Shown here one piece after another: positions 48,660 through 63,434 of a stretch of 64,000 nt of DNA. The notes below the pieces were generated by a model. That model was not told the origin of the DNA, ran no database searches, and saw only the letters and a list, made by a program, of their open reading frames with translations. The translations under genes and the position numbers were made by a program. This stretch comes from Candidatus Binatia bacterium (lineage in GTDB: Bacteria; Desulfobacterota; Binatia; UBA9968): assembly GCA_046757725.1 (NCBI GenBank), contig JBHHYU010000006.1, positions 13,841 to 77,840 on the forward strand, written 5' to 3'. Positions within the stretch are counted from its first letter, which is position 1. Each line of letters starts with the position of its first letter.

Positions 48660-49580
48660 GTGAGCGGCAAACAGTTTACAGACGATGCCTCTGGCATTAT
48701 CTTGGTCGGCGGCAAAAGCTCGCGTATGGGGCATGCTAAGGCATTGCTTCTCTTTGATGGTGAGCCGCTTATCGTGCACATCGTGCGCAACCTTAGGGGC
48801 CTGTTTGGTGAACTTGTTGTTGTGGCTGCCCCCGAGCAGGAACTGCCCTCGTTGCCGGTGAGGCTGGTACGAGACGAGGTCGCTTATCAGGGGCCGGTAG
48901 GCGGGATTTACTACGGGATCAGTGCGGCGACCAGCAATAACTGCTTTGTAACTTCGTGCGACGTGCCCTTTCTAAATCTTTCCTTGGTTTCATACCTCTT
49001 ATCTCAGATCTCGGATCACGACGTGGTTGTACCCACCTGGGAGGGTCGTCTTCAGCCATTGCAAGCCGTTTACCGGAGAAGTGTCGCCCCAATCCTAGAG
49101 AAGCAGCTGAACCGAGGCGAGTTGCGGCCGGTCTTCCTGTTTCCAAAGGTCCGTACTCGGAAGATTACTGAACAAGAGATCCGTACTGTTGATCCAAAGG
49201 GATTGAGTTTTCTCAATATGAACACGCCGGAGGCATACCAAGCGGCTTTGGCGCGGTGGCACGAGTTGCATGCTCATAGCGACTCAGCTCATGAAAAAGT
49301 TGTTTCTTGTACCGTGGAACTTTTCGGTGTCGCTCGCCTACTGGCAAAGACCCGAAAGGTCTCTCTTGCGCTGCCACAGGAGGCCACTCTCTCCCACGTC
49401 TTTTCGGCTCTGGCCGAAAGGCTGCCGACTTTGGTAGGCCCGGTTATCACCCCTGATAGAAATAACCTCACCAGCGGTAACGCTTGCAACATGAATGGTC
49501 TAGACTTTGTGCGGAACCCGAGCGTCAAGGTCAATCCGGGGGATAGTATTTTTCTTATCTCTGCCGACGCGGGAGGCTGA
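48660..49580 (+). CDS. fusion ORF: an N-terminal MobA-like molybdenum-cofactor nucleotidyltransferase domain and a C-terminal MoaD/ThiS-like beta-grasp domain ending in Gly-Gly
   Basis: N-terminal IILVGGKSSRMG.AKALL MobA motif. The last ~95 aa (VELFGVARLL...PGDSIFLISADAGG) follow the MoaD pattern with a C-terminal GG. Stop is 4 nt before the AOR start. Confidence 0.75.
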   Translation: MSGKQFTDDASGIILVGGKSSRMGHAKALLLFDGEPLIVHIVRNLRGLFGELVVVAAPEQELPSLPVRLVRDEVAYQGPVGGIYYGISAATSNNCFVTSCDVPFLNLSLVSYLLSQISDHDVVVPTWEGRLQPLQAVYRRSVAPILEKQLNRGELRPVFLFPKVRTRKITEQEIRTVDPKGLSFLNMNTPEAYQAALARWHELHAHSDSAHEKVVSCTVELFGVARLLAKTRKVSLALPQEATLSHVFSALAERLPTLVGPVITPDRNNLTSGNACNMNGLDFVRNPSVKVNPGDSIFLISADAGG

Positions 49581-49583
49581 GCG

Positions 49584-51491
49584 ATGTACGGGTTTCATGG
49601 TCGACTGCTCCATATTGATCTTACCACGAGAACTCACCGGTGGCGTAACCTTGAAGAACGCCGCCTGCGGGCGTTCTTAGGCGGCATCGGTCTTGGCACT
49701 AGCCTGCTCTACGATTTCGCCCCATCAGGGGTTGAGCCCCTTTCTCCAGCCAACCCGTTGATCTTTACCAGCGCGCCACTGGTGGGCACCGGTCTCACCA
49801 CCACAGCGAAATTTGCCGTAGTCACCAAATCCCCGCTCACCGGGTTTATCGCTGATTCACTTTCCTCCAGCTTCTTTGCCCTCGAGCTGAAGCGCACCGG
49901 TCTTGACGCTGTGGTGATCACCGGCCAGGCTGCTTCTGCAGTATACCTGTTTATCAGCAACGAAAATGTAGAGATGAGGGAAGGAAAACACCTGTGGGGA
50001 AGAAGCGCCAGCGAGACTGAGACCATCATTCGTTCTGAGCTCAAGGATGAGGGGGTACGGGTAGCGGCCATTGGCAAGGCCGGTGAAAATCGCGTACGTT
50101 TCGCCACTATCAGCAACGAGGGCCGCCATGCTGGGCGGGGCGGCGTTGGCGCGGTGATGGGGTCAAAAAACCTGAAGGCCATTGCTCTGTGTGGCCATGA
50201 TGGGGTCCATGTAGCCGATCCAAAAGGGGTCGAGGCCATCGCCGAGTCAATGCGGCACCGGAGCCTGGGCACGCTAACCGCCAAGTACCGACAGATCGGC
50301 ACTGTGGCAAATCTGGCGGTGTTCAACCGTCTCGGCACCTTGCCCAGTCGAAATTTTCAGCAGTCGACCTTCGACCACGCCGAAGCTCTGAGCGGGGAAA
50401 GCCTAACGGAGAACAACTTCAGCCGCAGGCATGGCTGTGCCTCCTGCACGATCCAGTGCGAACGCCTGTTCAAATCTCTGGCTGGAGAGGAACAACGCCT
50501 GGAATACGAGACTCTCTTTGCCCTCGGTCCCCTTTGTGGCATTGAGGATCCGGATGTGGTCCTACGCGCTGCCCATCTTTGTGACCTCTATGGCCTCGAT
50601 ACCATCAGCACCGGTGGTACACTTGCCTGGGCGATGGAGTGTGCGGAGAAGAGGTTGTTGCCTGAAGCCCCCGGCGGCGGGCTGCGCTTTGGTAATGGTG
50701 ATGGTCTGCTGGCAATTATTCCGGCGATTGCCGGGCGCAGTGGCCTCGGCGCCCTGCTGGCCGAAGGCTCAAGGGGAGCCGCTATGAAGGTTGGCAAAGA
50801 CGCGATGTACTGTGCAATGCACGTCAAGGGGCTGGAACTACCCGGGTATGAACCGCGCAGCATGAAAACCATGGCACTGGGGCTAGCGGTAAGCCCACGC
50901 GGAGCCTGCCACAACCGTTCTGGCGCCTACGAAGCCGACTTCTCAGGACAGGTCGATCGCTTGAGTGGAGATGCTGGCCGGGGCGCTCTGGTTGTGGCCT
51001 CGGAAGATTTTGCTGCGGTGCTGGACTCGCTGATTGTTTGCAAGTTCCTGCGCAAGTGCTTTAACGACTTTTATGCTGAGAGTGCGGATCTGCTCAGCAA
51101 GGTTACCGGCTGGCCTTGCTCTAACGGTGAGCTACGCCGGGTCGGCGAACGGATCCATACGCTCAAGAAACTGTTCAATCTGCGTGAGGGGTGGCGGCCG
51201 GAGGATGACTGGCTACCTCCACGATTGCTGGGCGAGGCCCTCCCGACCGGCGTGGCCCAGGGCGTAGGGTTGGCCCCGGCCGAGCTGCGAGAGATGATCC
51301 AGGGGTATTACCGGGAGAGAGAATGGGATGAGAGCGGTTTTGTTCCGGAAAAGAAGTTAAAGGAGTTGGGACTGCTGATGCCTTACCATGTCTCTCCCTT
51401 TGTACAAGAAACAAAGGGAGGAGACGGAGATGTGCCACCGAACCTCTCTGTCCCTGTCTCAAACCTCTATCTTAAACCAAGGGAGGAATAG
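49584..51491 (+). CDS. aor: aldehyde:ferredoxin oxidoreductase family (tungstopterin enzyme)
   Basis: MYGFHGRLLHIDLTT N-terminus and GLDTISTGGTLAWAMEC region. 635 aa. Confidence 0.85.
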   Translation: MYGFHGRLLHIDLTTRTHRWRNLEERRLRAFLGGIGLGTSLLYDFAPSGVEPLSPANPLIFTSAPLVGTGLTTTAKFAVVTKSPLTGFIADSLSSSFFALELKRTGLDAVVITGQAASAVYLFISNENVEMREGKHLWGRSASETETIIRSELKDEGVRVAAIGKAGENRVRFATISNEGRHAGRGGVGAVMGSKNLKAIALCGHDGVHVADPKGVEAIAESMRHRSLGTLTAKYRQIGTVANLAVFNRLGTLPSRNFQQSTFDHAEALSGESLTENNFSRRHGCASCTIQCERLFKSLAGEEQRLEYETLFALGPLCGIEDPDVVLRAAHLCDLYGLDTISTGGTLAWAMECAEKRLLPEAPGGGLRFGNGDGLLAIIPAIAGRSGLGALLAEGSRGAAMKVGKDAMYCAMHVKGLELPGYEPRSMKTMALGLAVSPRGACHNRSGAYEADFSGQVDRLSGDAGRGALVVASEDFAAVLDSLIVCKFLRKCFNDFYAESADLLSKVTGWPCSNGELRRVGERIHTLKKLFNLREGWRPEDDWLPPRLLGEALPTGVAQGVGLAPAELREMIQGYYREREWDESGFVPEKKLKELGLLMPYHVSPFVQETKGGDGDVPPNLSVPVSNLYLKPREE

Positions 51492-52489: not shown

Positions 52490-53605
52490 TTACCAAAGCT
52501 GTGACTTCCCTCCTTGCACCCACCAATTGTCGCGTGCACGGATCTCCATTTCATATCCCTTCCCCGATTGCCGTGCCAGCTCATAACACCTCTTGGCCAA
52601 GGCTAAATCAATGATGCCTTGGCCGCCCTGGTTCTTGTAAAGAATGATTTGCCTGTCGTCCGTTCTCCCCTTGGCATTTCCAGCGAGCACATCCGCGATG
52701 TCCACCACCCTGTCCCAGGTGATGACCCCCTCCTGCACGGGCCAGTAGATATCTCCTTGCTGGGAATCTATCGCTTGCTCCTTAGAGAGGGCCACAATGA
52801 AGCTACATCTCCTGAGGGTCCCATCATCGATCTCTCTGCGCGGGGCGGAGATGTTTCCGCTCTTGACCAATTCGATATTGCTGCCGATGACTGAAATTAT
52901 ATACTGCCCTTCTTCGAGCCAGGAACCGTCAATGACAGGCACATTGGTATTCGTCATGCACAGGATAATATCGACATCTTTGGCCGCCAACCGAGGATCA
53001 TCCACGGTTTCAATCGGCACACCGGTGGTCTCACCCATCCTCGTGGCAAATGCCTCTCTATGGGATGGCGTTGGGCTGTAGACCTTCGCGCTCTCAATCT
53101 TTCTCAGCTCTGTTAGGCCTAGAAAGGTTGAGCTGGCTTGGTGACCTGAGCCAAAAATACCAACCCGTGTAGCATCGCGGCGCGCAAAGTGATCAAGGCC
53201 GGCCAAGCTGGTAGCAGGAGTGCGCAAGTCCGCCGTACCCCCTACGTGTCGGGGGCGATGAGCCATTATTCCCAAAAGAGTTCCGCTATCGACATCGTAA
53301 ATCAGCGCAAGCTCAGTCTGGTCGGGATTATAAGGAGGTCTTTTCTGGACAGTCCCTTGTATGGCCTTGCGATGGAGGGCCACCTGGGCTCCGATAGCGC
53401 CGTAACTCGACGATCCGCCCGCGTAGATATTCAGAACGGTATCATAGGGTACTTCTCCCATATTTCGGTGGATGTGTAGCCTCTTGCGGGGAGCATTGGT
53501 CCCTAGCGGACTGGAAATGTCCTTCAGGGCGCTTTCAGCAATGCTGACGGCTTCTTTCAATGGAATAAGTTCATCTACATCATCTGAATGAAAAAAAAGC
53601 GCCAT
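52490..53605 (-). CDS. ornithine cyclodeaminase / mu-crystallin family protein
   Basis: Rossmann GIFGSGHQA and overall OCD-family layout. Confidence 0.7.
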   Translation of the reverse strand: MALFFHSDDVDELIPLKEAVSIAESALKDISSPLGTNAPRKRLHIHRNMGEVPYDTVLNIYAGGSSSYGAIGAQVALHRKAIQGTVQKRPPYNPDQTELALIYDVDSGTLLGIMAHRPRHVGGTADLRTPATSLAGLDHFARRDATRVGIFGSGHQASSTFLGLTELRKIESAKVYSPTPSHREAFATRMGETTGVPIETVDDPRLAAKDVDIILCMTNTNVPVIDGSWLEEGQYIISVIGSNIELVKSGNISAPRREIDDGTLRRCSFIVALSKEQAIDSQQGDIYWPVQEGVITWDRVVDIADVLAGNAKGRTDDRQIILYKNQGGQGIIDLALAKRCYELARQSGKGYEMEIRARDNWWVQGGKSQLW

Positions 53606-54030
53606 AAATCAACTCCTCCCTCTATGCCGGCCTAAGTTTTAACAGCGAGCAGCAGACTGATTTCTGCTCGATCCGCTCTGCCTTTCTAAAAAACAATGAA
53701 AAGGGACAGAACAGGAAAAGAACTATCGTACCACTGTTTGGTCGTCAAGCTTGGTTAACTTCCAAAAGCGCTAGCGGAGTGGGCCGGGAGGGGAGACGGC
53801 CGTCTCTTAAAATTTAAACTTTGCCAGCAACACACAGCACCTGTTTGAGTCGCAACATCAGACTAAATAGACTCCCTCTTACCTATTCCTGCTGAACCTG
53901 CCGCACAGCACATTGAGCAAGGGGTTACATGGTGATTCAGGAGAATTGACCGGCTTGAGCCCACTTCAGTCCATAGCAGTGGGACACCCCTTTGGTGGGA
54001 GTGCAGATGCGGGTAAGAAGCGTCCGCCCC

Positions 54031-54061
54031 AAAAAAGGGGACGGGTATGGCTCCCGTCCCC
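54031..54061 (-). terminator. rho-independent terminator for the minus-strand gene ending at 54090
   Basis: On the minus strand: GGGGACGG-gagccata-CCGTCCCC followed by TTTTTT. Confidence 0.6.
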
Positions 54062-54089
54062 TTCTCGATCTCAAAAAGAGAACTACTTA

Positions 54090-54377
54090 TTATTTTACAC
54101 TGACTTTGCTAGCGGTCTTGCGATCATCGTCCGCGTCATAGGTTGCCTTGATTGATTGGCCTTCCTTGATGTCGGAGCGGTCGTCCACGCCCTTTAAATC
54201 GGTGCGGCTACCGCTAATCCGGATCTTCACCGACTTGCACGGGTTCTTAACAGTAATGTAACGGCCATCCCGCTCGATTTTCACCACCTTTCCTTTGATC
54301 TCGGCGGCTACGAGCCAGCCTGCTACGGAAAGGGTAAAAAGGGTCATTAAAACAAGGCTTAATAGTTTCTTACTCAT
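54090..54377 (-). CDS. small secreted or periplasmic protein (signal peptide plus a ~70-aa Lys/Asp-rich beta domain)
   Basis: N-terminal LLSLVLMTLFTLSVAGWLVAA signal-like segment. Own terminator downstream. Confidence 0.6.
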   Translation of the reverse strand: MSKKLLSLVLMTLFTLSVAGWLVAAEIKGKVVKIERDGRYITVKNPCKSVKIRISGSRTDLKGVDDRSDIKEGQSIKATYDADDDRKTASKVSVK

Positions 54378-54653
54378 CTTTTCTCACCTCCTTAATCTAT
54401 TCAGCATTAGGGCACCTTGTTGGATAGCAGAATTTACGTTTTTACCTATGCAGTTGCCAAGGTTTAAAAGCCTCTGCCCAAACGTGTGATTTGGATAGAA
54501 CCGCAGGGGGGGCCACACCTTCCGCCCTGCCACGTTAGAGAGTTAAAGGGTTGAAAAATCGAAAAACTCTTGTGCCCGTAGACCCTTCAACTTTTTCAGG
54601 CCCCGAGGTATCTTCCAGAGGGACAAAAATATTAGCAATCCGCGGGTGGTTCT

Positions 54654-54885
54654 ATGAACTACCCCGTAGCAAGCTGCTGGGTATCAAAAGGAACGGACTC
54701 ATGTCAACACATTGCTATCGCGCCAAGAGCCTACTCCGCCGAAGCAGGCGCTTCCGCTGCGAAGGCCGGGCGCCAAGGGCGCAAAGAAAAACATGACCCT
54801 ATTTCTCCGAACTTGGCGTGCTTTGCGTCTTTGCGGGAGCCATCGTTTTGCCATTTCCGTAAGCCACATTTTAACCGATTGCTGC
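54654..54885. repeat. 232-bp element, inverted copy 1 (partner at 59254..59485)
   Basis: The reverse complement aligns to 59254..59485 with about 11 differences. A ~165-bp core differs by a single base. Confidence 0.85.
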
Positions 54886-54902
54886 AAACAGATGAGCTGT
54901 TT

Positions 54903-55886
54903 CTACCGGTTATTCCACCCCTCACCAAACGCTTCGGCCTCCCTAAATCCTTCTTCCCTCCATTCATCAATGAGTTCGCGGACAGGAATTTTACGATGCA
55001 TCAGCCCTTTCATGAGGCTCTTATACAGAGGCGCAGATTCCGTCTGGGCGTTAACGGGGCATACGGTTAGACAAATCTTGCAACCTTCGTAGTCCTCGAA
55101 ATAGGGGCGGCAAGCCGGGGTATCCACATGCCAGCGAACGGTACCAAAAACCTCTTGTTTCTTGGGAACAATGGCATTGCCGGGACAGAAATTAGTACAC
55201 GCATTGCAGCGCAAGCACAAATCATCAAAACCGTAATCGGCAGGCGCCGGTTCGGCAACGAGCGGTATCTCAGTTGTCACAACACCAAGACGCACACTGG
55301 GGCCAAATTTCTTGGTAATCAAGGACCCATGGCGACCCAACTCGCCTAATCCGGCCTTCCAGGCAATGGGTATAAAGAGAGCGGGCCCTTCATTCGGATA
55401 GCCCACGGCATGGTAACCAAACGAACGAATAAATTGCGCCAACCGCACGGATAGATCCGAGAGCCTGTAGTAAACCCTATGAACTTCCATTTGGGACAAC
55501 GGACCCAACCGTTTCATCTCATCGAAATCCATGTGAATGGCGAAGGAGATCCCACGGTTGTGACCTTGAGGGGGTGCAGTACCGCGGACAAAGTCGAACC
55601 GATCCACGGGGGCAATACCGACGAGATCGGCACCCAGCTGCAGGGCGGTCTCCTTTACGAATCGTGTTACTCCGTCCCAATCCTTCGTTTCCAGTTTTTC
55701 GGGATTGAGGGGGCCATCGTAAAGACCGCGTTGCGCATGCTCGGCCCTCATGAACATGAAGCGACGGGTTTGCGGGTGCCGCTTCGCCTTCGTGGCTTCA
55801 CCGCGCTTTTTATCTGGGAACGGCGACTGCTTGATGGCCGGTTCTCTACCAGGTGTGAAGATGATACCTTTAGGCTCCATGGGCAC
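54903..55886 (-). CDS. QueG/RdhA-superfamily protein with two [4Fe-4S] ferredoxin motifs (epoxyqueuosine-reductase-like)
   Basis: CLRCNACTNFCPGNAI and CKICLTVCPVN motifs. N-terminal VKETALQLGADLVGIAPVD resembles the QueG N-terminus. The start appears to be GTG. Confidence 0.6.
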   Translation of the reverse strand: MPMEPKGIIFTPGREPAIKQSPFPDKKRGEATKAKRHPQTRRFMFMRAEHAQRGLYDGPLNPEKLETKDWDGVTRFVKETALQLGADLVGIAPVDRFDFVRGTAPPQGHNRGISFAIHMDFDEMKRLGPLSQMEVHRVYYRLSDLSVRLAQFIRSFGYHAVGYPNEGPALFIPIAWKAGLGELGRHGSLITKKFGPSVRLGVVTTEIPLVAEPAPADYGFDDLCLRCNACTNFCPGNAIVPKKQEVFGTVRWHVDTPACRPYFEDYEGCKICLTVCPVNAQTESAPLYKSLMKGLMHRKIPVRELIDEWREEGFREAEAFGEGWNNR

Positions 55887-56178
55887 AATCCCCTGAACTA
55901 CGAACTAACTTGAGTAATGTATTTCAAATGAAACTCATATTCAACGTGAATTTATGAGCTTTAAGGGGCGGACCGGCCCTTATTCCCAATTTAGGACAGA
56001 GAATAGTCGGTACTCCGGTCTTATTTTCAGCTTCAGTGCGGGTTTACGGAAGAGATACTGAGCCGGGTACTCCCGCCCGTGACCGGCGTAAGGTCCTCAA
56101 GCAGCCCGTTGGGGGCTCTCGCAAGGTTCCTGATCGGAACCTTCAAGGACGTTGCAAAAGAAACCCCGCACAGCTAGG

Positions 56179-56197
56179 TTGACAGAGCACCTGTCAA
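56179..56197. promoter_or_regulatory. perfect dyad TTGACAG-N5-CTGTCAA in the divergent promoter region of the cassette
   Basis: 7-bp inverted arms read directly from the sequence. Lies between the divergent starts at 55886 and 56354. Confidence 0.3.
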
Positions 56198-56353
56198 TTC
56201 GATAACGTCTGGTTCAAACCACCGGTTCGAAAGGCAGCCTTGTCTTGCCCCACTAAAGCTTGATTCTGCTAAACGTAGCCTGGTGGACGGTCATTTGCAG
56301 AAATTCCCTGCTCTTTACGGGCTTATCTGCCATAACGAGGTTTTCATTATCCT

Positions 56354-57883
56354 ATGTGTGGAATAGCGACATACGTCGGATGTCAGTCGAGTACGGTCAC
56401 CAACATGATGGACGGTATAGCTGGACGTCTCCAGCACCGAGGGCCCGACGATTCTGGGGTCTTCCACGTCGGTTCGACGGTGCTCGCTCATCGGCGCTTG
56501 TCGATCATCGACGTCGCCGGGGGAAAACAACCTATATACAACGAAAACGGCGATCTGGCCCTTGTTTGCAACGGTGAGATCTACAACCATGAGCGGCTGC
56601 GCCATGAGTTGCGGGACCGACACCGCTTCCGCACACACTCCGATTCCGAGGTTATTCTTCACCTATACGAAGATTTGGGCCCGGCATTCGTGACAAAGCT
56701 TGACGGCATGTTCGCCTTCGTGTTGAGCGACGGCGAGGAGGTCTTCGCAGCGCGTGATCCCCTCGGTATCAAGCCGCTGTATATGGGAAGCGATGCCGAG
56801 GGTGGACTGTGGTTTGCCTCCGAACTCAAGGCGCTGATCGATGTGTGTGTAGATATCAAGGAGGTCCCACCAGGATTTGCGTACACTCGCGGCACCCTGG
56901 AGCAATGGTATCATCCATTGTGGCGGGAGCCGCCGGATCGGTCTTTGATGCTCGACCCAAGTTCAATCCGGGATAGGCTTGAATCCGCGGTTGTCAAGCG
57001 GTTGATGAGCGAGGTTCCAGTGGGGGTGTTCCTTTCCGGCGGGCTCGACTCGAGCATCATCGCTGCGCTGGTGCGCCAGCACGTGGATGAGCTGCACAGC
57101 TTCTCGGTCGGATTGGAGGGGTCACCGGACATCCTCGCCGCCAGGAAGGTGGCCGAACATCTCCGCACGCGTCACCACGAGTACGTTTACACCTCTGGAG
57201 AGGTCATCCGTGTGCTCGAAGAGGTGATCGCCCATCTTGAGTCCTACGATCCCGCGTTATTGCGCAGCGCTGTGCCGTGTTACTTTGTCTCCAAGATCGC
57301 CTCGGATCACGTCAAGGTCGTGCTGAGCGGAGAGGGCTCCGATGAGGCCTTCGCAGGCTACCTTTACTTCGACAGCGTCGGTGATCCGGCTGCCCTCCAT
57401 CGCGAGTGCGTGCGATTACTGACCGGCCTGCACAACATGAACCTGCAGCGAGTCGACCGCATGACGATGGCTCATTCCATCGAGGGTCGCGTTCCCTTCC
57501 TCGACATTGACTTTCTCGATACCGTAATGGCAATCGATCCGGGTGAAAAACTTCACCGGCGCGGTCGCCCGGAAAAATGGCTACTGCGCAGCGCCGTGAC
57601 CGACCTTCTGCCGGAGTCCATTCTGTGGCGCACGAAACAGGAGTTCGCCCAGGGATGCGGTTCCGAATGGACCCTGCGGGAGTATTGTGCAGAGGTAGTC
57701 AGCGAAGGCGACTGGGCCCAGGCCACCCGGAGCTACCCCGTCGACGCGCCTCGGACAAAGGAAGAGTTCCACTACCGACGCATCTTCGAGGAGATCTTTC
57801 CGGGGGAGACATCGCGTCGGACGGTAGGGCGCTGGCGCGGTGCATTTACTTCACCAAGTGAACAGGAGGAATACAATGCCTAA
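56354..57883 (+). CDS. asparagine synthetase B-family glutamine amidotransferase
   Basis: N-terminal MCGI class-II GATase nucleophile and PP-loop SGGLDSS. Confidence 0.85.
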   Translation: MCGIATYVGCQSSTVTNMMDGIAGRLQHRGPDDSGVFHVGSTVLAHRRLSIIDVAGGKQPIYNENGDLALVCNGEIYNHERLRHELRDRHRFRTHSDSEVILHLYEDLGPAFVTKLDGMFAFVLSDGEEVFAARDPLGIKPLYMGSDAEGGLWFASELKALIDVCVDIKEVPPGFAYTRGTLEQWYHPLWREPPDRSLMLDPSSIRDRLESAVVKRLMSEVPVGVFLSGGLDSSIIAALVRQHVDELHSFSVGLEGSPDILAARKVAEHLRTRHHEYVYTSGEVIRVLEEVIAHLESYDPALLRSAVPCYFVSKIASDHVKVVLSGEGSDEAFAGYLYFDSVGDPAALHRECVRLLTGLHNMNLQRVDRMTMAHSIEGRVPFLDIDFLDTVMAIDPGEKLHRRGRPEKWLLRSAVTDLLPESILWRTKQEFAQGCGSEWTLREYCAEVVSEGDWAQATRSYPVDAPRTKEEFHYRRIFEEIFPGETSRRTVGRWRGAFTSPSEQEEYNA

Positions 57884-59156
57884 CGCCAATACACTATCAC
57901 CTACAAACGAAACCAACGGTCTCCGAACATACAGCGAGACCGTCGCTAAAGGACTATACAACAAATATATTGGTGGTCTGTTTGGAAAACACGACAACGT
58001 ACGGACCTACTGGGAGGACCAGCTAACCCGGCTCGCCCTGCGCCCGTTCGTTAATCGGATTGCCCAAGCCTGCCGCGCCGAAAACCGCGGCGTGCGCATC
58101 TTGGACCTGGGATGCGGTGCGGGGCAGGGATACGAATTGCTGACGCGTATCAACCAGAAAGACCTGAATATGGACACCGATTTGCCCTATGTGCTGCCCC
58201 CAGAAGAGATAGGTCAGTTTCTCGGCGTTGACATAAGCGATGCCATGGTTGAACAGGGCCGGCAGAACTACTCCGGCGTTTCGAACGTCGCCTTCGAGCA
58301 AGCGGATCTGTCCGAGGGACTCGGGATGGTCAAGTCGGAGTCACCCTTCGACATCTACTTCTCGTCGTACGGCGCCTTGTCTCATTTAGAAACCGCCGCC
58401 CTCCGTCAATGCTTGACTGATATCCTCTACCACGCGAGACCGGGAGCACTGGTGGTATTAGATATGGTTGGACGCTACTCGCCGGAGTGGCCGCTCTATT
58501 GGAGCACGGATAATGAAGTCGAGGACATGCACCCATACTCGATGAGTTACATGTACGACGAACAGGAGCGGCGGAAAGGCGAGATAGAGCAATTTCCCCT
58601 CCGCTTCTGGAGTAGTGTTGACGTACGTCGTATGTGCGACGAACTGGGTCAGCATCAAGGTGTCTCCTTGAAGCCGATCGAGTTCTTAGATCGCTCGATA
58701 TTCGTAGGGCGCCACACCGACACACGGGAATACCAGTGTAGCCTCCCGCGCCTCCGCAGGGTCGTAAACAAGCTGTACGAACTAAACGTCCGAACGCATA
58801 TCGAACAGCTCCGATTGGACTATCGGCCCTCGGATGGTCCCGAGGAACTCAACCGTTTCTTTAGTGAATTGGCCATGAGCTGGACGAAGGTCGTTGACTT
58901 TACGCTGAACCGGATTCAGGGCGACCGCATGGACCTCGTAGCCCTCGATGGCTGGCGCACGTTCGCTCCCGCTTTGCAGACGGCCCTGATGACAATGGAC
59001 CGAGTGATCGACAGCGTGTCCTGGATCAGTCTTGGCGATGTCCGCGCCAACATCCTGGAACCGCAGCTGGCCTACGTGCTGCAACGTCTCGAGTATACCA
59101 TGCAGCACGGATGGGGCTGTGGGCACGGTCTGGTCGTTGTGTTACAAGTGGAATAG
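57876..59156 (+). CDS. SAM-dependent methyltransferase with a ~250-aa C-terminal extension
   Basis: Motif I VRILDLGCGAGQG. The ATG at 57876 overlaps the asnB-like stop by 8 nt and has AGGAGG upstream. Confidence 0.7.
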   Translation: MPNANTLSPTNETNGLRTYSETVAKGLYNKYIGGLFGKHDNVRTYWEDQLTRLALRPFVNRIAQACRAENRGVRILDLGCGAGQGYELLTRINQKDLNMDTDLPYVLPPEEIGQFLGVDISDAMVEQGRQNYSGVSNVAFEQADLSEGLGMVKSESPFDIYFSSYGALSHLETAALRQCLTDILYHARPGALVVLDMVGRYSPEWPLYWSTDNEVEDMHPYSMSYMYDEQERRKGEIEQFPLRFWSSVDVRRMCDELGQHQGVSLKPIEFLDRSIFVGRHTDTREYQCSLPRLRRVVNKLYELNVRTHIEQLRLDYRPSDGPEELNRFFSELAMSWTKVVDFTLNRIQGDRMDLVALDGWRTFAPALQTALMTMDRVIDSVSWISLGDVRANILEPQLAYVLQRLEYTMQHGWGCGHGLVVVLQVE

Positions 59157-59253
59157 ATTCCGGGAAGCGTATTTATTGAAGCGTGAACCATATAAGGAGG
59201 TACCGAGGTGGCTAAGCTGTACTTTCATTCAATCGCTACGGGTTAATTCCCCG

Positions 59254-59485
59254 CAGCTATCGGTTAAGATGTGGCTTACGGAAACGGCAAAATGATGACT
59301 TGCGCAAAGGCGCAAAGCACGCCAAGTTCGGAGAAATAGGGGTCATGTTTTTCTTTGCGCCCTTGGCGCCCGGCCTTCGCAGCGGAAGCGCCTGCTTCGG
59401 CGGAGTAGGCTCTTGGCGCGATAGCAATGTGTTGACATGAGTCCGTTCCTTTTGATACCCCGCAGCTTGCTGCGGGGTAGTTCAT
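59254..59485. repeat. 232-bp element, inverted copy 2
   Basis: See copy 1. Contains a perfect hairpin CCCCGCAGC-ttg-GCTGCGGGG. Confidence 0.85.
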
Positions 59486-59562
59486 TTCGATTCGAATCTA
59501 CGGCGATGGGTTCCCTTACGAGCAAATATGTGTTATCCAGAAGCGTAAAAGGGAATCCTGTG

Positions 59563-60075
59563 ATGGGCAAACCGAGTTCAGATAGAATACTACCCAATGG
59601 GCTGGTTTTGTTCGTGGTTTTATTGTCATGGATATCATACGGCTATGCAGAGGCACCCGCTACTAAGGAAACCGCGGAACAATGGGAGGAGATAGCCTCT
59701 TTAAGGTATGAGGCTGCCATAGGCCACGAGTCACGGGCCGAACAGAAGGAAGCGCTTGGGAGTGAAACCCCTGGTGTGGCTCTTAGCGCTGCCGGTGATG
59801 AGAAGGTATCCGCTTCAGGCGGTTACAAAACCGCAAGCGAGCATTGGAAAAAAGCAGCTGAGGCGTACAAGGCGACGGGTGATTTAGATAATGCAAAAAA
59901 AGCCCGATACAACTCCGATCTGGCTTGGGAGTCGGCTAAACGTACGCTTCGCGAGGCAGCGGAATTGCATAAGAGGGCCGCAAAGGTGTTCGAAGACGCG
60001 AACAAACTGGGCGAGAAAATAGACGCGCTCAAAAAGGTGGCTAGTGATCTCGAAGCCTTACTGAACATGAAATAA
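59563..60075 (+). CDS. hypothetical secreted or membrane-anchored helical protein
   Basis: Signal-like MGKPSSDRILPNGLVLFVVLLSWISYGYAEAP followed by an Ala/Lys/Glu-rich helical region. Start chosen downstream of the repeat. Confidence 0.5.
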   Translation: MGKPSSDRILPNGLVLFVVLLSWISYGYAEAPATKETAEQWEEIASLRYEAAIGHESRAEQKEALGSETPGVALSAAGDEKVSASGGYKTASEHWKKAAEAYKATGDLDNAKKARYNSDLAWESAKRTLREAAELHKRAAKVFEDANKLGEKIDALKKVASDLEALLNMK

Positions 60076-60189
60076 TTGGAGTTAATTAGCAGTTCAAAGG
60101 TTTTAAAAGCGGCGGTCATTGGTGACAAGTCAATACCAACCGCCAGACAGCTTGACAAATCGTGCCCTTAAGATCTAATAGGGGCCAGT

Positions 60190-62151
60190 ATGGCAGCCAA
60201 ATGGGGGCTTTTCCTCTGTAATTGTCACCGCACACTTTCCCTCGATCCTGAGCGGCTTGTCCTTCCTACCGTCCCCAGCGTTCTCTCATTCGCAAGGGAT
60301 CCAGAGACTGAGGCTCCTAAATTTGCCTCAAGTGTCCAGAGTGAGGGACCCGATCAGGTACTGATCAGTTGCTGTGCCGGTCCCGGTCTGTTTAATCAGG
60401 CGATCAATAATGGCACGGCACCGTCTACGAAGCTGCGATTTGTTGATCTAAAAGGCCTCTGTTTTCAGGTCCATTCGGATCCCGCAGAGGCCCATGCCAA
60501 AGCAAACCGGTTGTTGTGTGCCGCGATGGAAACCGCCGAAGCGGAGACACAGGTGACCTATAATCCCTTGAATGTCGGGGGTCGTATCGTTATTGCGACC
60601 GATTCGACCCAAGGGATACAGTTCGCAGAAAAACTCCGAGACATCGCCCAGACAAGTTTTATTATCGCCCCGGATGTCCTGCCGGATCTGTCCCCGACGC
60701 TGGAGGTGACCAGGGGTCGGGTTCTGGGTGTCCAGGGCTCCTTGGGCGGCTTTCGGGTGACCGTTGAGACTAATGACGGGCCTAAACGGGGTCATCGGGA
60801 CCTGCAGGCGGATCAATTCGTATCCATATCAGAGAACGACACACCGGGTATTAAACGGCGTACGGGCTGTCATTTGCTTGTCAAGCCGGACAGGGCTGAC
60901 CTCGACGAACTTGCAATGCGCGTCCGTGACCTCATCGGTGACTTTGTCAAGCCGGTTCAGGTGGCATATAACGGCGATATCTGTGCGGGAGGGACGGCAG
61001 ACCAGAAGGGGTGTGGAATCTGCATAACCTCGTGTCCGTACGACGCCATCAGCCGCGACCCGCAAAATCATTTTCGGATGCAGGTTGATCACATGGCTTG
61101 CGAGGGGTGCGGCGCCTGTGCCTCGGCTTGTCCCACAAGCTCCCTGCGCTTTACGGAGCCCTCCCCGCATGAGCTCTATACGCGGCTCGCCGCTCTGCTC
61201 GGGCACAGACCAGGGCACAGTAACGGGGAACGTTTGACTGTTCTCTTCCATTGCGGCGAGCAGGGCAGGCGTGTACTCGAAGAGGCAGGCCGGCGGCCAC
61301 TGCCATACCCGGCGAGCGTGTTTCCCGTCGAGGTGCCGTGTCTGCGCTATGTTTCCGAGGCCAACATCCTGGCCGCTTTCCGCTTGGGTGCGGCCGGAGT
61401 CGGTCTCCTGGGCTGCGAGACATGCCAGCACGGGGAGCGGGAATTACTCTATCAGAAAGTTGACTTCTGCCGTCTGACTCTGGATGCCTTTGGCATGGGC
61501 TCTGAACGGTTGCGCCTCATGACTGCAGACCATGGTACGGAGGTGGAAGTCGTCACAGCCCTATCGAGCTTTGCCGAGAAGCTGGATAAGGCGCCTATCC
61601 ACTGGGACGGCAAACGCATCGATTCCTGGGGTAACCGGGAGGTAGTAGCCGACGCGATTCGGACCTTTATCGAACAGACAGGCCGGGAGCCCGGACGCAG
61701 GGCCCTCGATCCCTCGCAGCCCTTTGCTCTTGCGGATGTTGAGAGCTCTGGTTGTACCCTGTGTCGCTCCTGCGTGAATGTTTGTCCGGTACATGCCTTC
61801 AGCATCGAGGAGGGAAAAGGCTCATTGAGGTCTAAGGCCATTGCCTGTGTGGCCTGTGGTCTCTGCGAGAAGGTCTGCCCTGAAAACGTAATCACGCTTC
61901 GGCGGGAAATTTTCTTTGAACGGGACGCCCTCGATTACCAGACAGTAGTAGAAGACCCAATGGTCTCGTGTGGCAAGTGCGGGAAGCCCTATATCAACAA
62001 AAAGGCTCTGGAGACCATTGAGACTCGGCTGTTTTCACTTGAGTCGTTGATGGATACTTTTAGCGGTAATCGGCGAAAACTGCTCAGATTGTGTCCTGAC
62101 TGCCGTGCCGCAGAAGCCATGCTGGAAGTGGAGAAAGGCTGGAAACCGTGA
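60190..62151 (+). CDS. polyferredoxin with an embedded MvhD/FlpD-like domain (two 2x[4Fe-4S] modules plus a C-terminal CxxC...CxxC)
   Basis: Four CxxCxxCxxxCP motifs (CGICITSCP, CEGCGACASACP, CTLCRSCVNVCP, CVACGLCEKVCP). MvhD-like block VLFHCGEQG...VPCLRYVSEANILAAFRLGAAGVGLLGCETCQH. Confidence 0.75.
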   Translation: MAAKWGLFLCNCHRTLSLDPERLVLPTVPSVLSFARDPETEAPKFASSVQSEGPDQVLISCCAGPGLFNQAINNGTAPSTKLRFVDLKGLCFQVHSDPAEAHAKANRLLCAAMETAEAETQVTYNPLNVGGRIVIATDSTQGIQFAEKLRDIAQTSFIIAPDVLPDLSPTLEVTRGRVLGVQGSLGGFRVTVETNDGPKRGHRDLQADQFVSISENDTPGIKRRTGCHLLVKPDRADLDELAMRVRDLIGDFVKPVQVAYNGDICAGGTADQKGCGICITSCPYDAISRDPQNHFRMQVDHMACEGCGACASACPTSSLRFTEPSPHELYTRLAALLGHRPGHSNGERLTVLFHCGEQGRRVLEEAGRRPLPYPASVFPVEVPCLRYVSEANILAAFRLGAAGVGLLGCETCQHGERELLYQKVDFCRLTLDAFGMGSERLRLMTADHGTEVEVVTALSSFAEKLDKAPIHWDGKRIDSWGNREVVADAIRTFIEQTGREPGRRALDPSQPFALADVESSGCTLCRSCVNVCPVHAFSIEEGKGSLRSKAIACVACGLCEKVCPENVITLRREIFFERDALDYQTVVEDPMVSCGKCGKPYINKKALETIETRLFSLESLMDTFSGNRRKLLRLCPDCRAAEAMLEVEKGWKP

Positions 62152-62173
62152 CACAGAAGCTGATAAAGGGAGA

Positions 62174-62245
62174 GTTCAAAACGTTCAACTTGTTCAAGGC
62201 GTTCAAACGATTCAAACCATTTGAACCATATTGAACAATTGGAAC
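62174..62245 (+). repeat. hexamer array: five direct (G/A)TTCAA at exactly 9-bp spacing, then two inverted TTGAAC and a TGGAAC, ending 10 nt before ATG 62256
   Basis: Hexamers at 62174, 62183, 62192, 62201 and 62210. TTGAAC at 62221 and 62231. TGGAAC at 62240. Confidence 0.8.
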
Positions 62246-62255
62246 AAGTGGAAGT

Positions 62256-62699
62256 ATGGAGACGAGAGAGAAGCAGAAACGCAGAAAAGGCAAACGTGGG
62301 AGGCGGAAGAGTAAGGAGTTGATGGATGCGGCCCTTGATGCCTATATCCGCCATCTGGCACTGGAAAAATGGCGTCAGGTGACCGATCTCCAAGAGACTC
62401 TTGGGGTTGATGTGGGGCAGGCGGTCCGTGATGTCGGATGCTTTCCGGAAAGGGGAGCCTATGGAAACATCTGGGAGCGATGGTGGCAGACCCATGTTGT
62501 CGGCATTCATAATGCGGAGACCTCACCGCTAATCGAGCACATTGAGGCGGCGGTTCAGGGTGCGCTCGAAGAGGAGATCGTCACTCGACAGAAGCAAGAA
62601 GATGTAACGGTAGAAGATACCCTGGGCTACAAAGCCTTTCTGGATTCCGCTATGGACCACTTGTTTGAGGAAGAAGAGGGGTCCATCGAGGAGATGTGA
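62256..62699 (+). CDS. hypothetical protein (basic N-terminus, acidic C-terminus)
   Basis: Stop overlaps or abuts the start of the TorD-like gene (TGA-ATG at 62697-62702). Preceded by the GTTCAA array. Confidence 0.55.
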   Translation: METREKQKRRKGKRGRRKSKELMDAALDAYIRHLALEKWRQVTDLQETLGVDVGQAVRDVGCFPERGAYGNIWERWWQTHVVGIHNAETSPLIEHIEAAVQGALEEEIVTRQKQEDVTVEDTLGYKAFLDSAMDHLFEEEEGSIEEM

Positions 62700-63434
62700 A
62701 TGGATCAGGTAACGGTCAGAGACAAAGCGCTGGTACAGTTCCGCTACAACTATTACGGCTTGTTCGTTCGGTTCTGGTCGAGGGAACCGGCAGCGGAATT
62801 CATTGCGTCTCTAGAAGAGGGTATTCAAGATCGAATGGAGGCTGCTGCTACGCTTCACCCGCGCATGGGGGAAGGGTGGCGGCACATTCGGCAGTTTCTA
62901 GCCCAAGGCAAACCCGAGGAGGCAGCCGAAGAGTTTACCGAGCTTTTTCTCAGTCCCTTTGGTTCTCAAGTCAACCCCTATGAGTCCTATTATCTCACGG
63001 GCCACCTGTTCAGGGCTCCCCTTGTGGTCCTTCGTGGCTTCCTTGAACGTCTCGGTTTGGAGAGAGAACAGCAAGAATTTTCTGAGCCTGAAGATGTGCT
63101 GGCGTTCGAACTGGAAGTCATGCGCTGGCTGATTGGCAAGCAGATGGCGACAGAAAATGAAGGGGAAGAAACGAGTTGGTTGCAACTTCAGGCTGATTTT
63201 CTCAGAGAGCATTTGCTCGTCTGGGTTCCCACCTGTACGGAGGATATAGAGAGGGCTCAACAGGCGCACTTCTATCGTGGCGCTGCCATAATGCTCCGTG
63301 CCTTTCTTGAGTTGGAGCACACTCTCTTCCGCGACTGGGGACTGGATCAGATAGTGTCCCTTGCGGAGGCTAGAAAACGTTACGGGGTGAAACCAATCTG
63401 GAAAGGTCCAACCTTTGATGTATCCGGCGATTAG
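62700..63434 (+). CDS. TorD/DmsD/NarJ-family redox-enzyme maturation chaperone
   Basis: ELFLSPFGSQVNPYESYYLTGHLF region typical of the TorD family. Confidence 0.7.
   Translation: MDQVTVRDKALVQFRYNYYGLFVRFWSREPAAEFIASLEEGIQDRMEAAATLHPRMGEGWRHIRQFLAQGKPEEAAEEFTELFLSPFGSQVNPYESYYLTGHLFRAPLVVLRGFLERLGLEREQQEFSEPEDVLAFELEVMRWLIGKQMATENEGEETSWLQLQADFLREHLLVWVPTCTEDIERAQQAHFYRGAAIMLRAFLELEHTLFRDWGLDQIVSLAEARKRYGVKPIWKGPTFDVSGD

What the first reader, a model, noticed from the sequence alone, without database searches (positions are those of the whole stretch)
54903..59156. Cassette cargo with no assignable pathway: a QueG/RdhA-like Fe-S protein diverging from a coupled AsnB-like amidotransferase and long SAM-methyltransferase
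Inside the inverted repeats there is a 327-aa protein on the minus strand with two CxxCxxCxxxCP-type cluster motifs and a QueG-like N-terminus. This places it in the epoxyqueuosine-reductase / reductive-dehalogenase superfamily. It diverges across a 467-bp control region from a class-II glutamine amidotransferase of the asparagine synthetase B family (MCGI nucleophile, SGGLDSS PP-loop). The amidotransferase stop overlaps the start of a 427-aa SAM methyltransferase by 8 nt. That overlap indicates translational coupling and hence a functional pair. AsnB paralogs outside asparagine synthesis usually amidate carboxylates on glycans, lipids or peptides (established family knowledge). Paired with a dedicated methyltransferase and a putative cobalamin/Fe-S reductase, this looks like a small-molecule or glycan tailoring module. 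The specific substrate cannot be named from the sequence. To my reading the amidotransferase and methyltransferase ORFs have visibly higher third-position GC than the LPS genes upstream. That is compatible with horizontal acquisition. However, the whole right-hand part of the window, from about 48.6 kb, is also GC-rich, so this is weak evidence.
Basis: partly seen in the sequence, partly recalled or inferred. Interest (0 to 1): 0.6.

Follow-up and report, generated by a model that had tools for sequence, protein, structure and literature searches.

The report
Uncharacterised amidotransferase–methyltransferase pair, probable betaine synthesis
Two of the three genes form a widespread, unnamed enzyme pair (an asparagine-synthetase look-alike plus a methyltransferase) that in most genomes sits beside a betaine importer and probably makes an unknown stress-protective small molecule; the third gene, an iron-sulfur reductase, appears to be only a neighbour.

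Summary
The three ORFs, their motifs, the 8-nt stop/start overlap and the flanking 232-nt inverted repeats are all real. The block is not one pathway.

The AsnB-like gene (56354-57883) and the 426-aa SAM methyltransferase (57876-59156) form a deeply conserved pair:
- They are adjacent in many phyla and fused into one polypeptide in two database proteins.
- In relatives they are usually followed by a ProX/OpuC-type betaine ABC importer, and sometimes by an MscS channel.
- The amidotransferase passes NCBI's AsnB model. However, it lies outside the E. coli/human AsnB clade and lacks two conserved synthetase-site features: the Thr-Thr pair and the Asp of the substrate amino-group pocket.

I infer that the pair makes an N-methylated amino-acid amide, a betaine-type compatible solute. 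The product is unknown, and I found no description in the literature I could search.

In this genome the pair has the two highest GC3 values in the window and lacks the transporter. It looks like a foreign replacement copy.

The 325/327-aa Fe-S protein is a minimal, signal-less RdhA-type (not QueG) reductase. It neighbours the pair only in a narrow Binatia lineage and elsewhere sits beside aromatic-catabolism genes.

The parts
54654..54885 (.). Left arm of the 232-nt inverted repeat. Its outer end (about 54659-54682) carries a copy of a dispersed REP-like hairpin.
   Evidence: 146 nt at 99% plus 89 nt at 91%, complementary to 59253-59485. Searches show that only the roughly 40-nt hairpin is shared with at least 120 metagenome contigs.
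54903..55886 (-). Minimal cytoplasmic RdhA-type (reductive-dehalogenase-like) protein with predicted corrinoid and two [4Fe-4S] clusters. It is 327 aa from the GTG start; the likely true start is the ATG at 55880 (325 aa). I judge it a neighbour, not part of the pair's pathway.
   Evidence: RDH 104 bits, QueG 57 bits. PceA 4e-25, NpRdhA 5e-23. Y139, R199 and 8 Cys invariant; model TMq 0.72-0.75 to NpRdhA and 0.46-0.50 to QueG. Contexts.
55887..56353 (.). Divergent intergenic region of 467 bp. No recognised RNA family, and not conserved with relatives at the DNA level.
   Evidence: no Rfam match up to E=1. (DNA homology to L001 starts at about 56343 and to L210 at 56354, i.e. at or within about 10 nt upstream of the ATG). 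(no convincing promoter).
56354..57883 (+). AsnB-like glutamine-dependent amidotransferase/adenylating enzyme, 509 aa. It belongs to the non-canonical 'x-L / N384 / Q386 / W430' clade.
   Evidence: E. coli AsnB 1CT9, 6e-125. (signature and tree). (fusions).
57864..57869 (+). Shine-Dalgarno AGGAGG for the methyltransferase, lying inside the 3' end of the amidotransferase gene.
57876..59156 (+). 426-aa class I SAM methyltransferase with a family-specific C-terminal helical domain. Its start overlaps the amidotransferase stop by 8 nt.
   Evidence: (970 relatives; P0001 at 100%). (about 90 invariant columns). (only the Rossmann core matches solved structures).
59253..59485 (.). Right arm of the inverted repeat. 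A REP-like hairpin lies at 59456-59479. The arm starts 97 nt after the methyltransferase stop, where relatives carry the ABC-transporter genes.
   Evidence: 10-bp stem; homology to the closest relative L005 ends at 59208, and L005 continues into an ABC ATPase.

Best explanation
The block holds two unrelated functions.

(1) Genes 56354-59156 are a two-enzyme biosynthetic module.
- The AsnB-like enzyme hydrolyses glutamine at Cys1. It uses ATP at the PP-loop to adenylate a substrate carboxylate, which it then amidates.
- The coupled SAM methyltransferase N-methylates the same small molecule.
- The likely product is an N-methylated amino-acid amide: a zwitterionic, betaine-type compatible solute, for example an N-methylated asparagine.
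- Either order of steps is possible. The altered amino-group pocket of the amidotransferase would suit a substrate that is already N-methylated.
- In most genomes the pair is followed by a ProX/OpuC-type betaine importer, presumably for recapture or uptake, and sometimes by an MscS release valve.
- In this genome the pair is a compositionally foreign copy that has lost the transporter.

(2) Gene 54903-55880 is a signal-less, minimal RdhA-type enzyme with a predicted cobalamin and two [4Fe-4S] clusters. It probably acts on an aromatic or halogenated substrate and is adjacent only through lineage-specific synteny.

What is shown and what is inferred:
- Shown: the family memberships, the coupling, conservation and fusion of the pair, the transporter association, and the active-site differences.
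- Inferred: that methylation is on nitrogen, the identity of the product, and its osmoprotective role.
For: Pairing:
- In 80 species-level loci carrying the methyltransferase, an AsnB-like gene lies directly upstream on the same strand in 29 of 73 and within 8 kb in 43 of 73.
- P0122 (934 aa) and P0123 (901 aa) are AsnB-like::methyltransferase fusions.
- The window shows an SD sequence plus an 8-nt overlap.

Not canonical AsnB:
- The window protein and the methyltransferase-linked homologues (38 aligned) replace the conserved Thr-Thr with x-Leu (second position Leu in 35 of 38).
- They replace Asp384 with Asn (36 of 38). Glu348, Asp351, Arg387 and SGGLDSS are kept.
- Among 150 representatives the T-T/D384 and x-L/N384 signatures separate cleanly. 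The T-T/D384 proteins, including E. coli AsnB, form one clade that excludes the window protein.
- In human ASNS, Asp400 (equivalent to Asp384) helps form the pocket for the substrate's charged amino group. [quoted passage not shown]

Betaine link:
- An ABC ATPase plus a permease fused to an OpuAC domain follows directly in 41 of 76 loci.
- Its binding domain matches A. fulgidus ProX at 2e-52.
- It keeps K13, Y63, T66, Y111, R149 and Y214, with Y190 changed to F, in 20-21 of 21 sequences.
- MscS channels flank the module in 4 loci.
- MttB-family genes (13 loci) and tandem glutaminases (13 cyanobacterial loci) recur nearby.
- Carriers include marine or halotolerant organisms: Crocosphaera, Nodularia, Leptolyngbya PCC 7375 and Scalindua.

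Foreign copy:
- GC3 in the window is 0.692 and 0.674 for the pair against 0.576 for the Fe-S gene. In relatives L001 and L085 all three genes are 0.56-0.59.
- The closest relative of the pair (L005, 88-91% identity) keeps the ABC ATPase.

Fe-S protein: for family; for context.
Against: - No product has been observed. N-methylation rather than O- or C-methylation is inferred only from context; structural matches to the methyltransferase are generic.
- The amidotransferase scores above NCBI's equivalog cut-off for asparagine synthase B (621 against 499 bits). It is close to E. coli AsnB (6e-125), so it may still make asparagine as a dedicated supply.
- The window itself has no betaine transporter.
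- The transporter ATPases are short (about 255 aa) and Pfam finds no domain in them besides the ABC cassette.
- Many carriers are soil or groundwater bacteria.
- MttB and glutaminase neighbours could equally indicate catabolism.
- Methyltransferase homologues at 39-45% identity occur without AsnB, next to ProA-like and GCS2-like genes. That arrangement does not obviously lead to the same product.
- The Fe-S gene does stay next to the pair in at least four related contigs (L001, L006, L085, L210). A lineage-specific functional link is therefore not excluded.
Confidence: 0.55

Rival explanations
1. The amidotransferase is ordinary housekeeping asparagine synthetase B. The methyltransferase is an unrelated gene that happens to overlap it.
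For: NF006949 (asparagine synthase B) scores 621 bits against a 499 cut-off, and TIGR01536 scores 450 against 267. E. coli AsnB matches at 6e-125 with catalytic Glu348, Asp351, Arg387 and the PP-loop kept. No second asnB is present in the 64-kb window.
Against: - Adjacency is conserved across phyla and there are two natural fusions with this very methyltransferase family.
- The window protein lies outside the clade that holds E. coli AsnB.
- The Thr-Thr pair and Asp384 are lost, and T336I inactivates human ASNS.
- GC3 is foreign.
Confidence: 0.1
2. All three genes form one tailoring module in which the RdhA/QueG-like reductase, the amidotransferase and the methyltransferase modify a glycan, lipid, peptide or other small molecule.
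For: The divergent arrangement is kept in Binatia relatives L001, L006, L085 and L210. The inverted repeats bracket exactly these three genes, 18 nt and 97 nt from the gene ends.
Against: - The reductase is absent from about 80 other loci that carry the methyltransferase.
- Its homologue at 81% identity sits beside Amidohydro_2, an AMP-ligase, UbiD and a phenylphosphate-carboxylase gamma subunit. Those at 43% sit beside Amidohydro_2.
- Its composition and divergence differ from the pair's.
- No glycosyltransferase recurs next to the pair.
Confidence: 0.08
3. The pair is a real pathway, but its product is not an osmolyte. It could be a nitrogen-rich storage or signalling compound, or a precursor of a secondary metabolite. 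Alternatively the pair modifies an imported betaine-like nutrient brought in by the adjacent ABC system.
For: - The transporter ATPases are short (about 255 aa) and show only ABC-cassette domains in Pfam.
- MttB-family and Rieske/LigXa_C genes (families known for quaternary-amine demethylation; my own knowledge) and glutaminases lie nearby.
- Many hosts are non-saline soil or groundwater bacteria.
- The window copy has no transporter.
Against: Both enzymes are anabolic, consuming ATP and SAM. MscS channels are adjacent in 4 loci. The module is simple (two enzymes plus an importer) and very widely distributed, which is typical of compatible-solute systems rather than secondary metabolism. The betaine cage is conserved.
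Confidence: 0.22

Closest known systems
Asparagine synthetase B (E. coli AsnB, PDB 1CT9; human ASNS, 6GQ3)
   Same: It has the same two-domain architecture: an N-terminal Cys1 Ntn glutaminase and a PP-loop adenylating synthetase. It matches 1CT9 at 6e-125. Glu348, Asp351, Arg387 and SGGLDSS are kept. It passes the NCBIfam equivalog cut-off.
   Different: It is shorter (509 against 554 aa). The conserved Thr-Thr is Ala-Leu, Asp384 is Asn, and 386 is Gln. It lies outside the clade that holds E. coli AsnB. It is coupled or fused to a methyltransferase.
Glycine betaine synthesis by glycine-sarcosine and sarcosine-dimethylglycine N-methyltransferases (GSMT/SDMT)
   Different: There is no specific sequence relationship. 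This methyltransferase is 426 aa with an extra C-terminal domain that matches no solved structure. It is partnered with an amidotransferase, implying an amide-bearing product rather than glycine betaine.
N-acetylglutaminylglutamine amide (NAGGN) pathway amidotransferase (AsnO; TIGR03104)
   Same: An AsnB-family enzyme dedicated to amidating a compatible solute so that it becomes uncharged. This is the same chemical logic.
   Different: TIGR03104 scores 277 bits against a 570 cut-off. No Ngg-type ligase/acetyltransferase is present, and the partner here is a methyltransferase.
Catabolic and respiratory reductive dehalogenases (NpRdhA 4RAS; PceA 4UQU) and QueG
   Same: The fold matches (TMq 0.72-0.75 to NpRdhA). 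Both Fe-S motifs are present, along with the Tyr (Y139, equivalent to NpRdhA Y426 and PceA Y246) and the basic residue (R199, equivalent to PceA R305).
   Different: It is only 325 aa, with no TAT signal and no reductase module. It scores below the TIGR02486 cut-off (104 against 160) and far below the QueG cut-off (57 against 200). The substrate is unknown.
ProX/OpuC-type betaine ABC importers (A. fulgidus ProX 1SW2; OpuCC; EgtUC)
   Same: In relatives the module is followed by an ATPase and a permease fused to a binding domain. That domain matches ProX at 2e-52 and keeps the aromatic cage and carboxylate ligands.
   Different: It is absent from this window. The ligand is unknown, and Tyr190 is Phe throughout.

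Membership tests
Asparagine synthetase B (glutamine-hydrolysing, housekeeping) | N-terminal Cys nucleophile directly after Met, and class-II GATase domain | tested here: met
   MCGI N-terminus. GATase_7 at 4.9e-44.
Asparagine synthetase B (glutamine-hydrolysing, housekeeping) | PP-loop SGGxDS and catalytic Glu348/Asp351/Arg387 | tested here: met
   SGGLDSS, E, D and R are conserved in the window protein and in 37-38 of 38 methyltransferase-linked homologues.
Asparagine synthetase B (glutamine-hydrolysing, housekeeping) | Score above the curated equivalog cut-off | tested here: met
   NF006949 scores 621.4 against 499. TIGR01536 scores 449.8 against 267.1.
Asparagine synthetase B (glutamine-hydrolysing, housekeeping) | Conserved synthetase-site residues: the Thr-Thr of YD(V/I)TT(I/V)RAS and Asp384 of the amino-group pocket | tested here: not met
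   The window protein has Ala-Leu and Asn. Roles are taken from PMC6748925.
Asparagine synthetase B (glutamine-hydrolysing, housekeeping) | Groups with E. coli/human AsnB in a tree | tested here: not met
   In a neighbour-joining tree of 172 sequences, the T-T/D384 proteins plus E. coli AsnB form a 56-leaf clade that excludes the window protein. This is a simple distance tree without support values.
Asparagine synthetase B (glutamine-hydrolysing, housekeeping) | Only route to asparagine in the genome | not testable with these tools
   Only 64 kb of the genome is available. No other asnB is present in the window.
QueG (epoxyqueuosine reductase) | Score above the TIGR00276 cut-off, and closest structural relative is QueG | tested here: not met
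   57.2 bits against 200. QueG structures match at E 5e-9 and TMq 0.46-0.50, against RdhAs at E 5e-18 and TMq up to 0.75.
Reductive dehalogenase catalytic subunit (RdhA) | Two Fe-S cluster motifs (CxxCxxCxxxCP, plus C...CxxCxxxCP) | tested here: met
   C224/227/230/234 and C259/269/272/276 are invariant in 20 family members.
Reductive dehalogenase catalytic subunit (RdhA) | Active-site Tyr and basic residue (PceA Y246/R305; NpRdhA Y426/K488) | tested here: met
   Y139 and R199 align to these positions (my reading of the alignments) and are invariant. NpRdhA R552 is not conserved; the window protein has Phe there.
Reductive dehalogenase catalytic subunit (RdhA) | Score above the TIGR02486 cut-off | tested here: not met
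   104 bits against 160.35.
Reductive dehalogenase catalytic subunit (RdhA) | TAT signal and RdhB anchor (respiratory type), or a fused reductase module (NpRdhA type) | tested here: not met
   The N-terminus (MEPKGIIFTPGRE...) has no twin-arginine motif. The protein is 325 aa with no extra domain, and no rdhB-like gene is adjacent.
Reductive dehalogenase catalytic subunit (RdhA) | Binds cobalamin and dehalogenates | not testable with these tools
   Requires biochemistry.
Class I SAM-dependent methyltransferase | Rossmann fold with glycine-rich motif I | tested here: met
Betaine-type compatible-solute gene cluster | Biosynthetic genes linked to an OpuA/ProX-type importer with an aromatic cage | tested here: inconclusive
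   Met in relatives: 41 of 76 loci, cage conserved. Not met in this window, where no such transporter exists.
Betaine-type compatible-solute gene cluster | Product accumulates under osmotic stress | not testable with these tools
   No expression or metabolite data are available. No literature was found.
Mobile insertion cassette / composite element | Terminal inverted repeats bracketing passenger genes | tested here: met
Mobile insertion cassette / composite element | Target-site duplication, and other copies of the whole arm elsewhere | tested here: not met
   Reading the flanks shows no direct repeat. Only the roughly 40-nt hairpin of the arm recurs in other contigs. No transposase lies between the arms.

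The most novel reading that the evidence does not exclude
The AsnB-like/methyltransferase pair, with its importer, would be the biosynthetic system for a so-far undescribed betaine-type compatible solute, for example N-methylated asparagine. It is present across Binatia, Myxococcota, Acidobacteriota, Gammaproteobacteria, marine diazotrophic cyanobacteria (Crocosphaera, and the Rhopalodia spheroid-body endosymbiont) and marine anammox bacteria (Scalindua). For Scalindua rubra, a genome study reported no known betaine or ectoine synthesis (PMC5486813).
Probability: 0.4. Interest if true: 0.75.

Novelty: new variant of a known kind. Interest (0 to 1): 0.62.

Why it matters
If the inference holds, a whole clade of genes annotated as 'asparagine synthase B' is mis-named. 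It would belong to an unrecognised pathway for a methylated, amide-bearing osmolyte. That pathway occurs in ecologically important organisms: oceanic nitrogen fixers, marine anammox bacteria and abundant soil lineages. Such a compound would matter for marine and soil pools of methylated nitrogen compounds. It would also fill a gap for organisms whose osmoprotectant is unknown. The pair is short (2.8 kb), has cultured carriers and exists as a natural fusion protein, so it can be tested directly by heterologous expression. Separately, the 325-aa RdhA-like family is a compact, signal-less member of the cobalamin/Fe-S reductase superfamily with unknown chemistry.

Tried and rejected
- An exact-sequence look-up of the window methyltransferase's contig found nothing.
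- An Rfam scan of 53500-60300 at E up to 1 found no riboswitch or other RNA in the 467-bp leader or in the repeats.
- The promoter and terminator scan was at background level, apart from the repeat hairpin.
- A sequence search of the methyltransferase profile against the PDB gave only generic class I enzymes.
- The AlphaFold-database fold library was unavailable.
- Six literature searches for an AsnB-plus-methyltransferase osmolyte pathway, or for asparagine/aspartate/glutamine betaines in bacteria, found nothing relevant.
- The Scalindua rubra genome paper does not mention the cluster.
- I considered that the inverted repeats are two copies of a mobile MITE. I rejected this for the whole arm, because only a roughly 40-nt hairpin is dispersed and no target duplication is visible.
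- I considered QueG. I rejected it on model score and on fold ranking.
- I considered homoserine betaine, glutamate betaine and proline betaine as products. None can be tested with these tools.

Full report
OBSERVATION

The three ORFs exist as described.

Fe-S protein. It runs 54903-55886 on the minus strand and is 327 aa from a GTG start. All homologues begin two codons later, so the likely start is the ATG at 55880, giving 325 aa.

Amidotransferase. It occupies 56354-57883 (509 aa) and carries the MCGI N-terminus and the SGGLDSS PP-loop.

Methyltransferase. It starts at the ATG at 57876, six bases after an AGGAGG. It overlaps the TAA stop of the amidotransferase (57881-57883) by 8 nt. The product is 426 aa and is identical to a database protein from a 'Candidatus Binatia bacterium' MAG (P0001).

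Inverted repeats. The block is bracketed by inverted repeats at 54654-54885 and 59253-59485, the only long repeat in the window.

GC3. The amidotransferase (0.692) and methyltransferase (0.674) are the two highest of 53 ORFs (mean 0.546, sd 0.042). The Fe-S gene is unremarkable at 0.576.

THE AMIDOTRANSFERASE-METHYLTRANSFERASE PAIR

The methyltransferase family. It is a tightly conserved, unnamed family. There are 970 relatives with E below 0.001, at 55-77% identity across phyla, and about 90 columns are invariant over the whole length. Pfam sees only generic class I domains in residues about 65-220, and NCBIfam has no model for it. An AlphaFold model (pLDDT 80.9) matches solved structures only through the Rossmann core. 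The C-terminal helical part has no counterpart.

Gene neighbourhoods. A scan of one genome per species returned 80 loci. The hosts include:
- Binatia, Nitrospiraceae, Myxococcota, Vicinamibacterales and Gammaproteobacteria;
- marine cyanobacteria (Crocosphaera watsonii WH 8501, C. chwakensis CCY0110, Leptolyngbya PCC 7375, Nodularia, Calothrix and the Rhopalodia endosymbiont);
- Scalindua and Brocadiaceae, Opitutaceae, Armatimonadota, Actinomycetota and others.

In these loci:
- an AsnB-like gene lies directly upstream on the same strand in 29 of 73, and within 8 kb in 43 of 73;
- an ABC ATPase plus a permease fused to an OpuAC binding domain follows directly in 41 of 76;
- both are present in 22 of 72.

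Fusions. Two database proteins (P0122, 934 aa; P0123, 901 aa) are end-to-end fusions of the AsnB-like enzyme and this methyltransferase.

Together with the SD sequence and overlap in the window, this makes a shared pathway very likely.

IS THE AMIDOTRANSFERASE SIMPLY AsnB?

For: it exceeds NCBI's equivalog cut-off for asparagine synthase B (621 against 499 bits). It aligns to E. coli AsnB at 6e-125.

Against, from an alignment of the window protein with 38 methyltransferase-linked homologues:
- The glutaminase residues, the PP-loop, Glu348, Asp351 and Arg387 are kept.
- The Thr-Thr pair of the YD(V/I)TT(I/V)RAS motif is x-Leu (second position Leu in 35 of 38).
- Asp384 is Asn in 36 of 38, residue 386 is Gln in 37 of 38, and residue 430 is usually Trp (29 of 38).

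Against, from wider comparison:
- Among the 150 best cluster representatives from a 1.84-billion-protein library, two signatures separate cleanly. One is T-T/D384, as in E. coli, with lengths of about 530-620 aa. The other is x-L/N(G)384/Q386, with lengths of about 490-520 aa.
- In a neighbour-joining tree, the T-T/D384 sequences plus E. coli AsnB form one 56-leaf clade. It excludes the window protein, the linked homologues and the fusions.

The human ASNS structure paper gives the roles of these residues. The substrate's charged amino group sits in a pocket formed by Glu364, Asp367 and Asp400 (E. coli 348, 351 and 384). [quoted passage not shown]

The coupled enzymes therefore have a remodelled substrate pocket: less polar, with one negative charge fewer. 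That would suit an aspartate-like substrate whose amino group is already methylated. This last step is my inference.

THE BETAINE LINK

- The binding domain of the transporter next to the pair is most similar to A. fulgidus ProX (2e-52). After that come OpuCC, OpuBC and the ergothioneine-binding EgtUC.
- In 21 such domains, the ProX ligand residues Lys13, Tyr63, Thr66, Tyr111, Arg149 and Tyr214 are conserved in 20-21 of 21. Tyr190 is always Phe. I assign the residue roles from my own knowledge of the ProX structure.
- This indicates an aromatic cage for a methylated ammonium group, plus carboxylate ligands.
- MscS-type channels flank the module in 4 loci.
- MttB-family proteins, a family that includes quaternary-amine methyltransferases (my own knowledge), recur in 13 loci. 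Tandem glutaminases recur in 13 cyanobacterial loci.

Amidating the second carboxylate of an N-methylated acidic amino acid would give a net-neutral zwitterion. Other amide-bearing solutes such as NAGGN follow the same logic.

I therefore propose a betaine-type compatible solute, with N-methylated asparagine as the simplest candidate. I stress that the product, the site of methylation and the physiological role are all inferred.

I found no description of such a pathway. The Scalindua rubra genome paper states that Scalindua species cannot make glycine betaine or ectoine yet encode a betaine transporter. S. rubra contig MAYW01000018 carries this module (L054).

THIS GENOME'S COPY

- The window has no OpuA/ProX-type transporter.
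- The closest relative of the pair is a 1.8-kb contig binned to Nitrospiraceae (L005): 91% identity for the methyltransferase and 88% for AsnB. Its homology with the window ends at 59208. About 205 nt after the methyltransferase stop, L005 begins an ABC ATPase (MIELQNVTKRYG...).
- In the window, the right repeat arm starts at 59253 instead.
- In the Binatia relatives that share the Fe-S gene at about 89-91% protein identity, the pair is only 70-77% identical.
- In those relatives (L001, L085) all three genes have GC3 of 0.56-0.59. In the window the pair stands at 0.67-0.69, and L005's methyltransferase at 0.74.

The simplest reading is that a higher-GC allele of the pair replaced the resident one next to the Fe-S gene, and the transporter was lost.

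THE Fe-S PROTEIN

Family placement:
- It belongs with reductive dehalogenases rather than QueG. TIGR02486 scores 104 bits and QueG 57 bits, both below their cut-offs.
- PDB sequence matches are PceA at 4e-25, NpRdhA at 5e-23 and QueG at 7.5e-9.
- The model (pLDDT 86.4) superposes on NpRdhA with TMq 0.72-0.75, on PceA with 0.61-0.67, and on QueG with 0.46-0.50.
- Family members are about 320 aa, lack a TAT signal or any extra domain, and keep all eight cluster cysteines.
- They also keep Tyr139 and Arg199. In the HMMER alignments these align with NpRdhA Tyr426 and Lys488 and with the PceA Tyr and Arg that I take to be Tyr246 and Arg305.

Gene context:
- It neighbours the pair only in close Binatia relatives (L001, L006, L085, L210).
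- An 81% homologue lies in a cluster with Amidohydro_2, an AMP-dependent ligase, UbiD and a phenylphosphate-carboxylase gamma subunit.
- 43% homologues from marine Vicinamibacterales sit next to Amidohydro_2.

I conclude that it is an independent enzyme, probably acting on an aromatic (possibly halogenated) compound. It is retained beside the pair by synteny.

THE REPEATS

- The arms end 18 nt from the Fe-S gene stop and 97 nt from the methyltransferase stop.
- Only the outermost roughly 40 nt recur elsewhere. This is a perfect 8-10-bp GC-rich hairpin, CCCCGCAG-CTTG-CTGCGGGG.
- That hairpin was found in at least 120 metagenome contigs, often at contig ends, as expected of a REP-like dispersed element.
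- I saw no target duplication and no transposase.
- The repeats mark a local rearrangement. They do not demonstrate a mobile cassette.

VERDICT

The interesting object is the two-gene module: an unannotated and probably mis-annotated pathway of wide distribution, with a testable prediction. Confidence levels:
- about 0.9 that the two enzymes work together;
- about 0.55 that they make a betaine-type solute;
- about 0.25 for an asparagine-derived betaine specifically.

Noticed in passing
window 54654-54885 and 59253-59485; hairpins at about 54659-54682 and 59456-59479: The outer roughly 40 nt of each repeat arm (TTGATACCCCGCAGCTTGCTGCGGGGTAGTTCA) is a dispersed REP-like hairpin. It occurs in at least 120 soil and groundwater metagenome contigs, often at contig ends. 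The other roughly 190 nt of the arms are found only here. A partial third copy lies at 59243-59258.
   Followed up: partly
window 59437-60075 (+): The first 16 codons of this 212-aa ORF (MSPFLLIPRSLLRGSS...) lie inside the repeat arm and translate the hairpin. The real start is probably downstream, for example the Met before a signal-peptide-like LVLFVVLLSWISYGYA. The protein has no Pfam family.
   Followed up: no
L055, L061, L066, L067, L073, L083 and others (Planctomycetota, Armatimonadota, Actinomycetota): Methyltransferase homologues at 39-45% identity sit in a different operon: a ProA-like aldehyde dehydrogenase, a GCS2-like ligase, an MttB-family protein, the methyltransferase and the betaine-type ABC transporter, sometimes followed by MscS. 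There is no AsnB-like gene. It may be a variant pathway to a related product.
   Followed up: partly
L029, L030, L032, L035, L036, L038, L060 and other cyanobacterial loci: In Crocosphaera, Cyanothece and relatives, a 650-aa protein with two glutaminase domains lies on the opposite strand, directly next to the methyltransferase. In several of these loci the AsnB-like gene lies beyond it.
   Followed up: partly
proteins P0172, P0188, P0262 (1064-1201 aa) and P0145 (808 aa): AsnB-like proteins with the same non-canonical x-L/N384 signature are fused to long C-terminal regions that have no Pfam match. The first three look eukaryotic, with a leader sequence and low-complexity linkers. The function is unknown.
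   Followed up: partly
L001 13189-14421 (-) and L006 9862-11091: A Rieske/LigXa_C oxygenase lies a few kb from the module in Binatia relatives. By my own knowledge this is the same domain pair as betaine and carnitine demethylating oxygenases, so it is possibly the catabolic counterpart.
   Followed up: no
window 48660-51491 (+): A MobA-like nucleotidyltransferase with a C-terminal extension (306 aa) is directly followed by an aldehyde:ferredoxin oxidoreductase (635 aa). This begins the GC-richer right-hand part of the window (GC3 0.59-0.63).
   Followed up: no
window 60190-63434 (+): A 653-aa polyferredoxin with a FlpD (MvhD-like) domain and HdrA-like segments is followed, after a 147-aa ORF with no Pfam family, by a NarJ-type chaperone (Nitrate_red_del). 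This looks like the start of a redox-enzyme maturation or assembly cluster.
   Followed up: no
window 53606-54653: About 1 kb is almost free of coding sequence, holding only a 95-aa ORF at 54090-54377 (-) with a hydrophobic, signal-peptide-like N-terminus. It lies between the ornithine-cyclodeaminase-family gene (52490-53605) and the left repeat arm. No RNA family was detected.
   Followed up: partly
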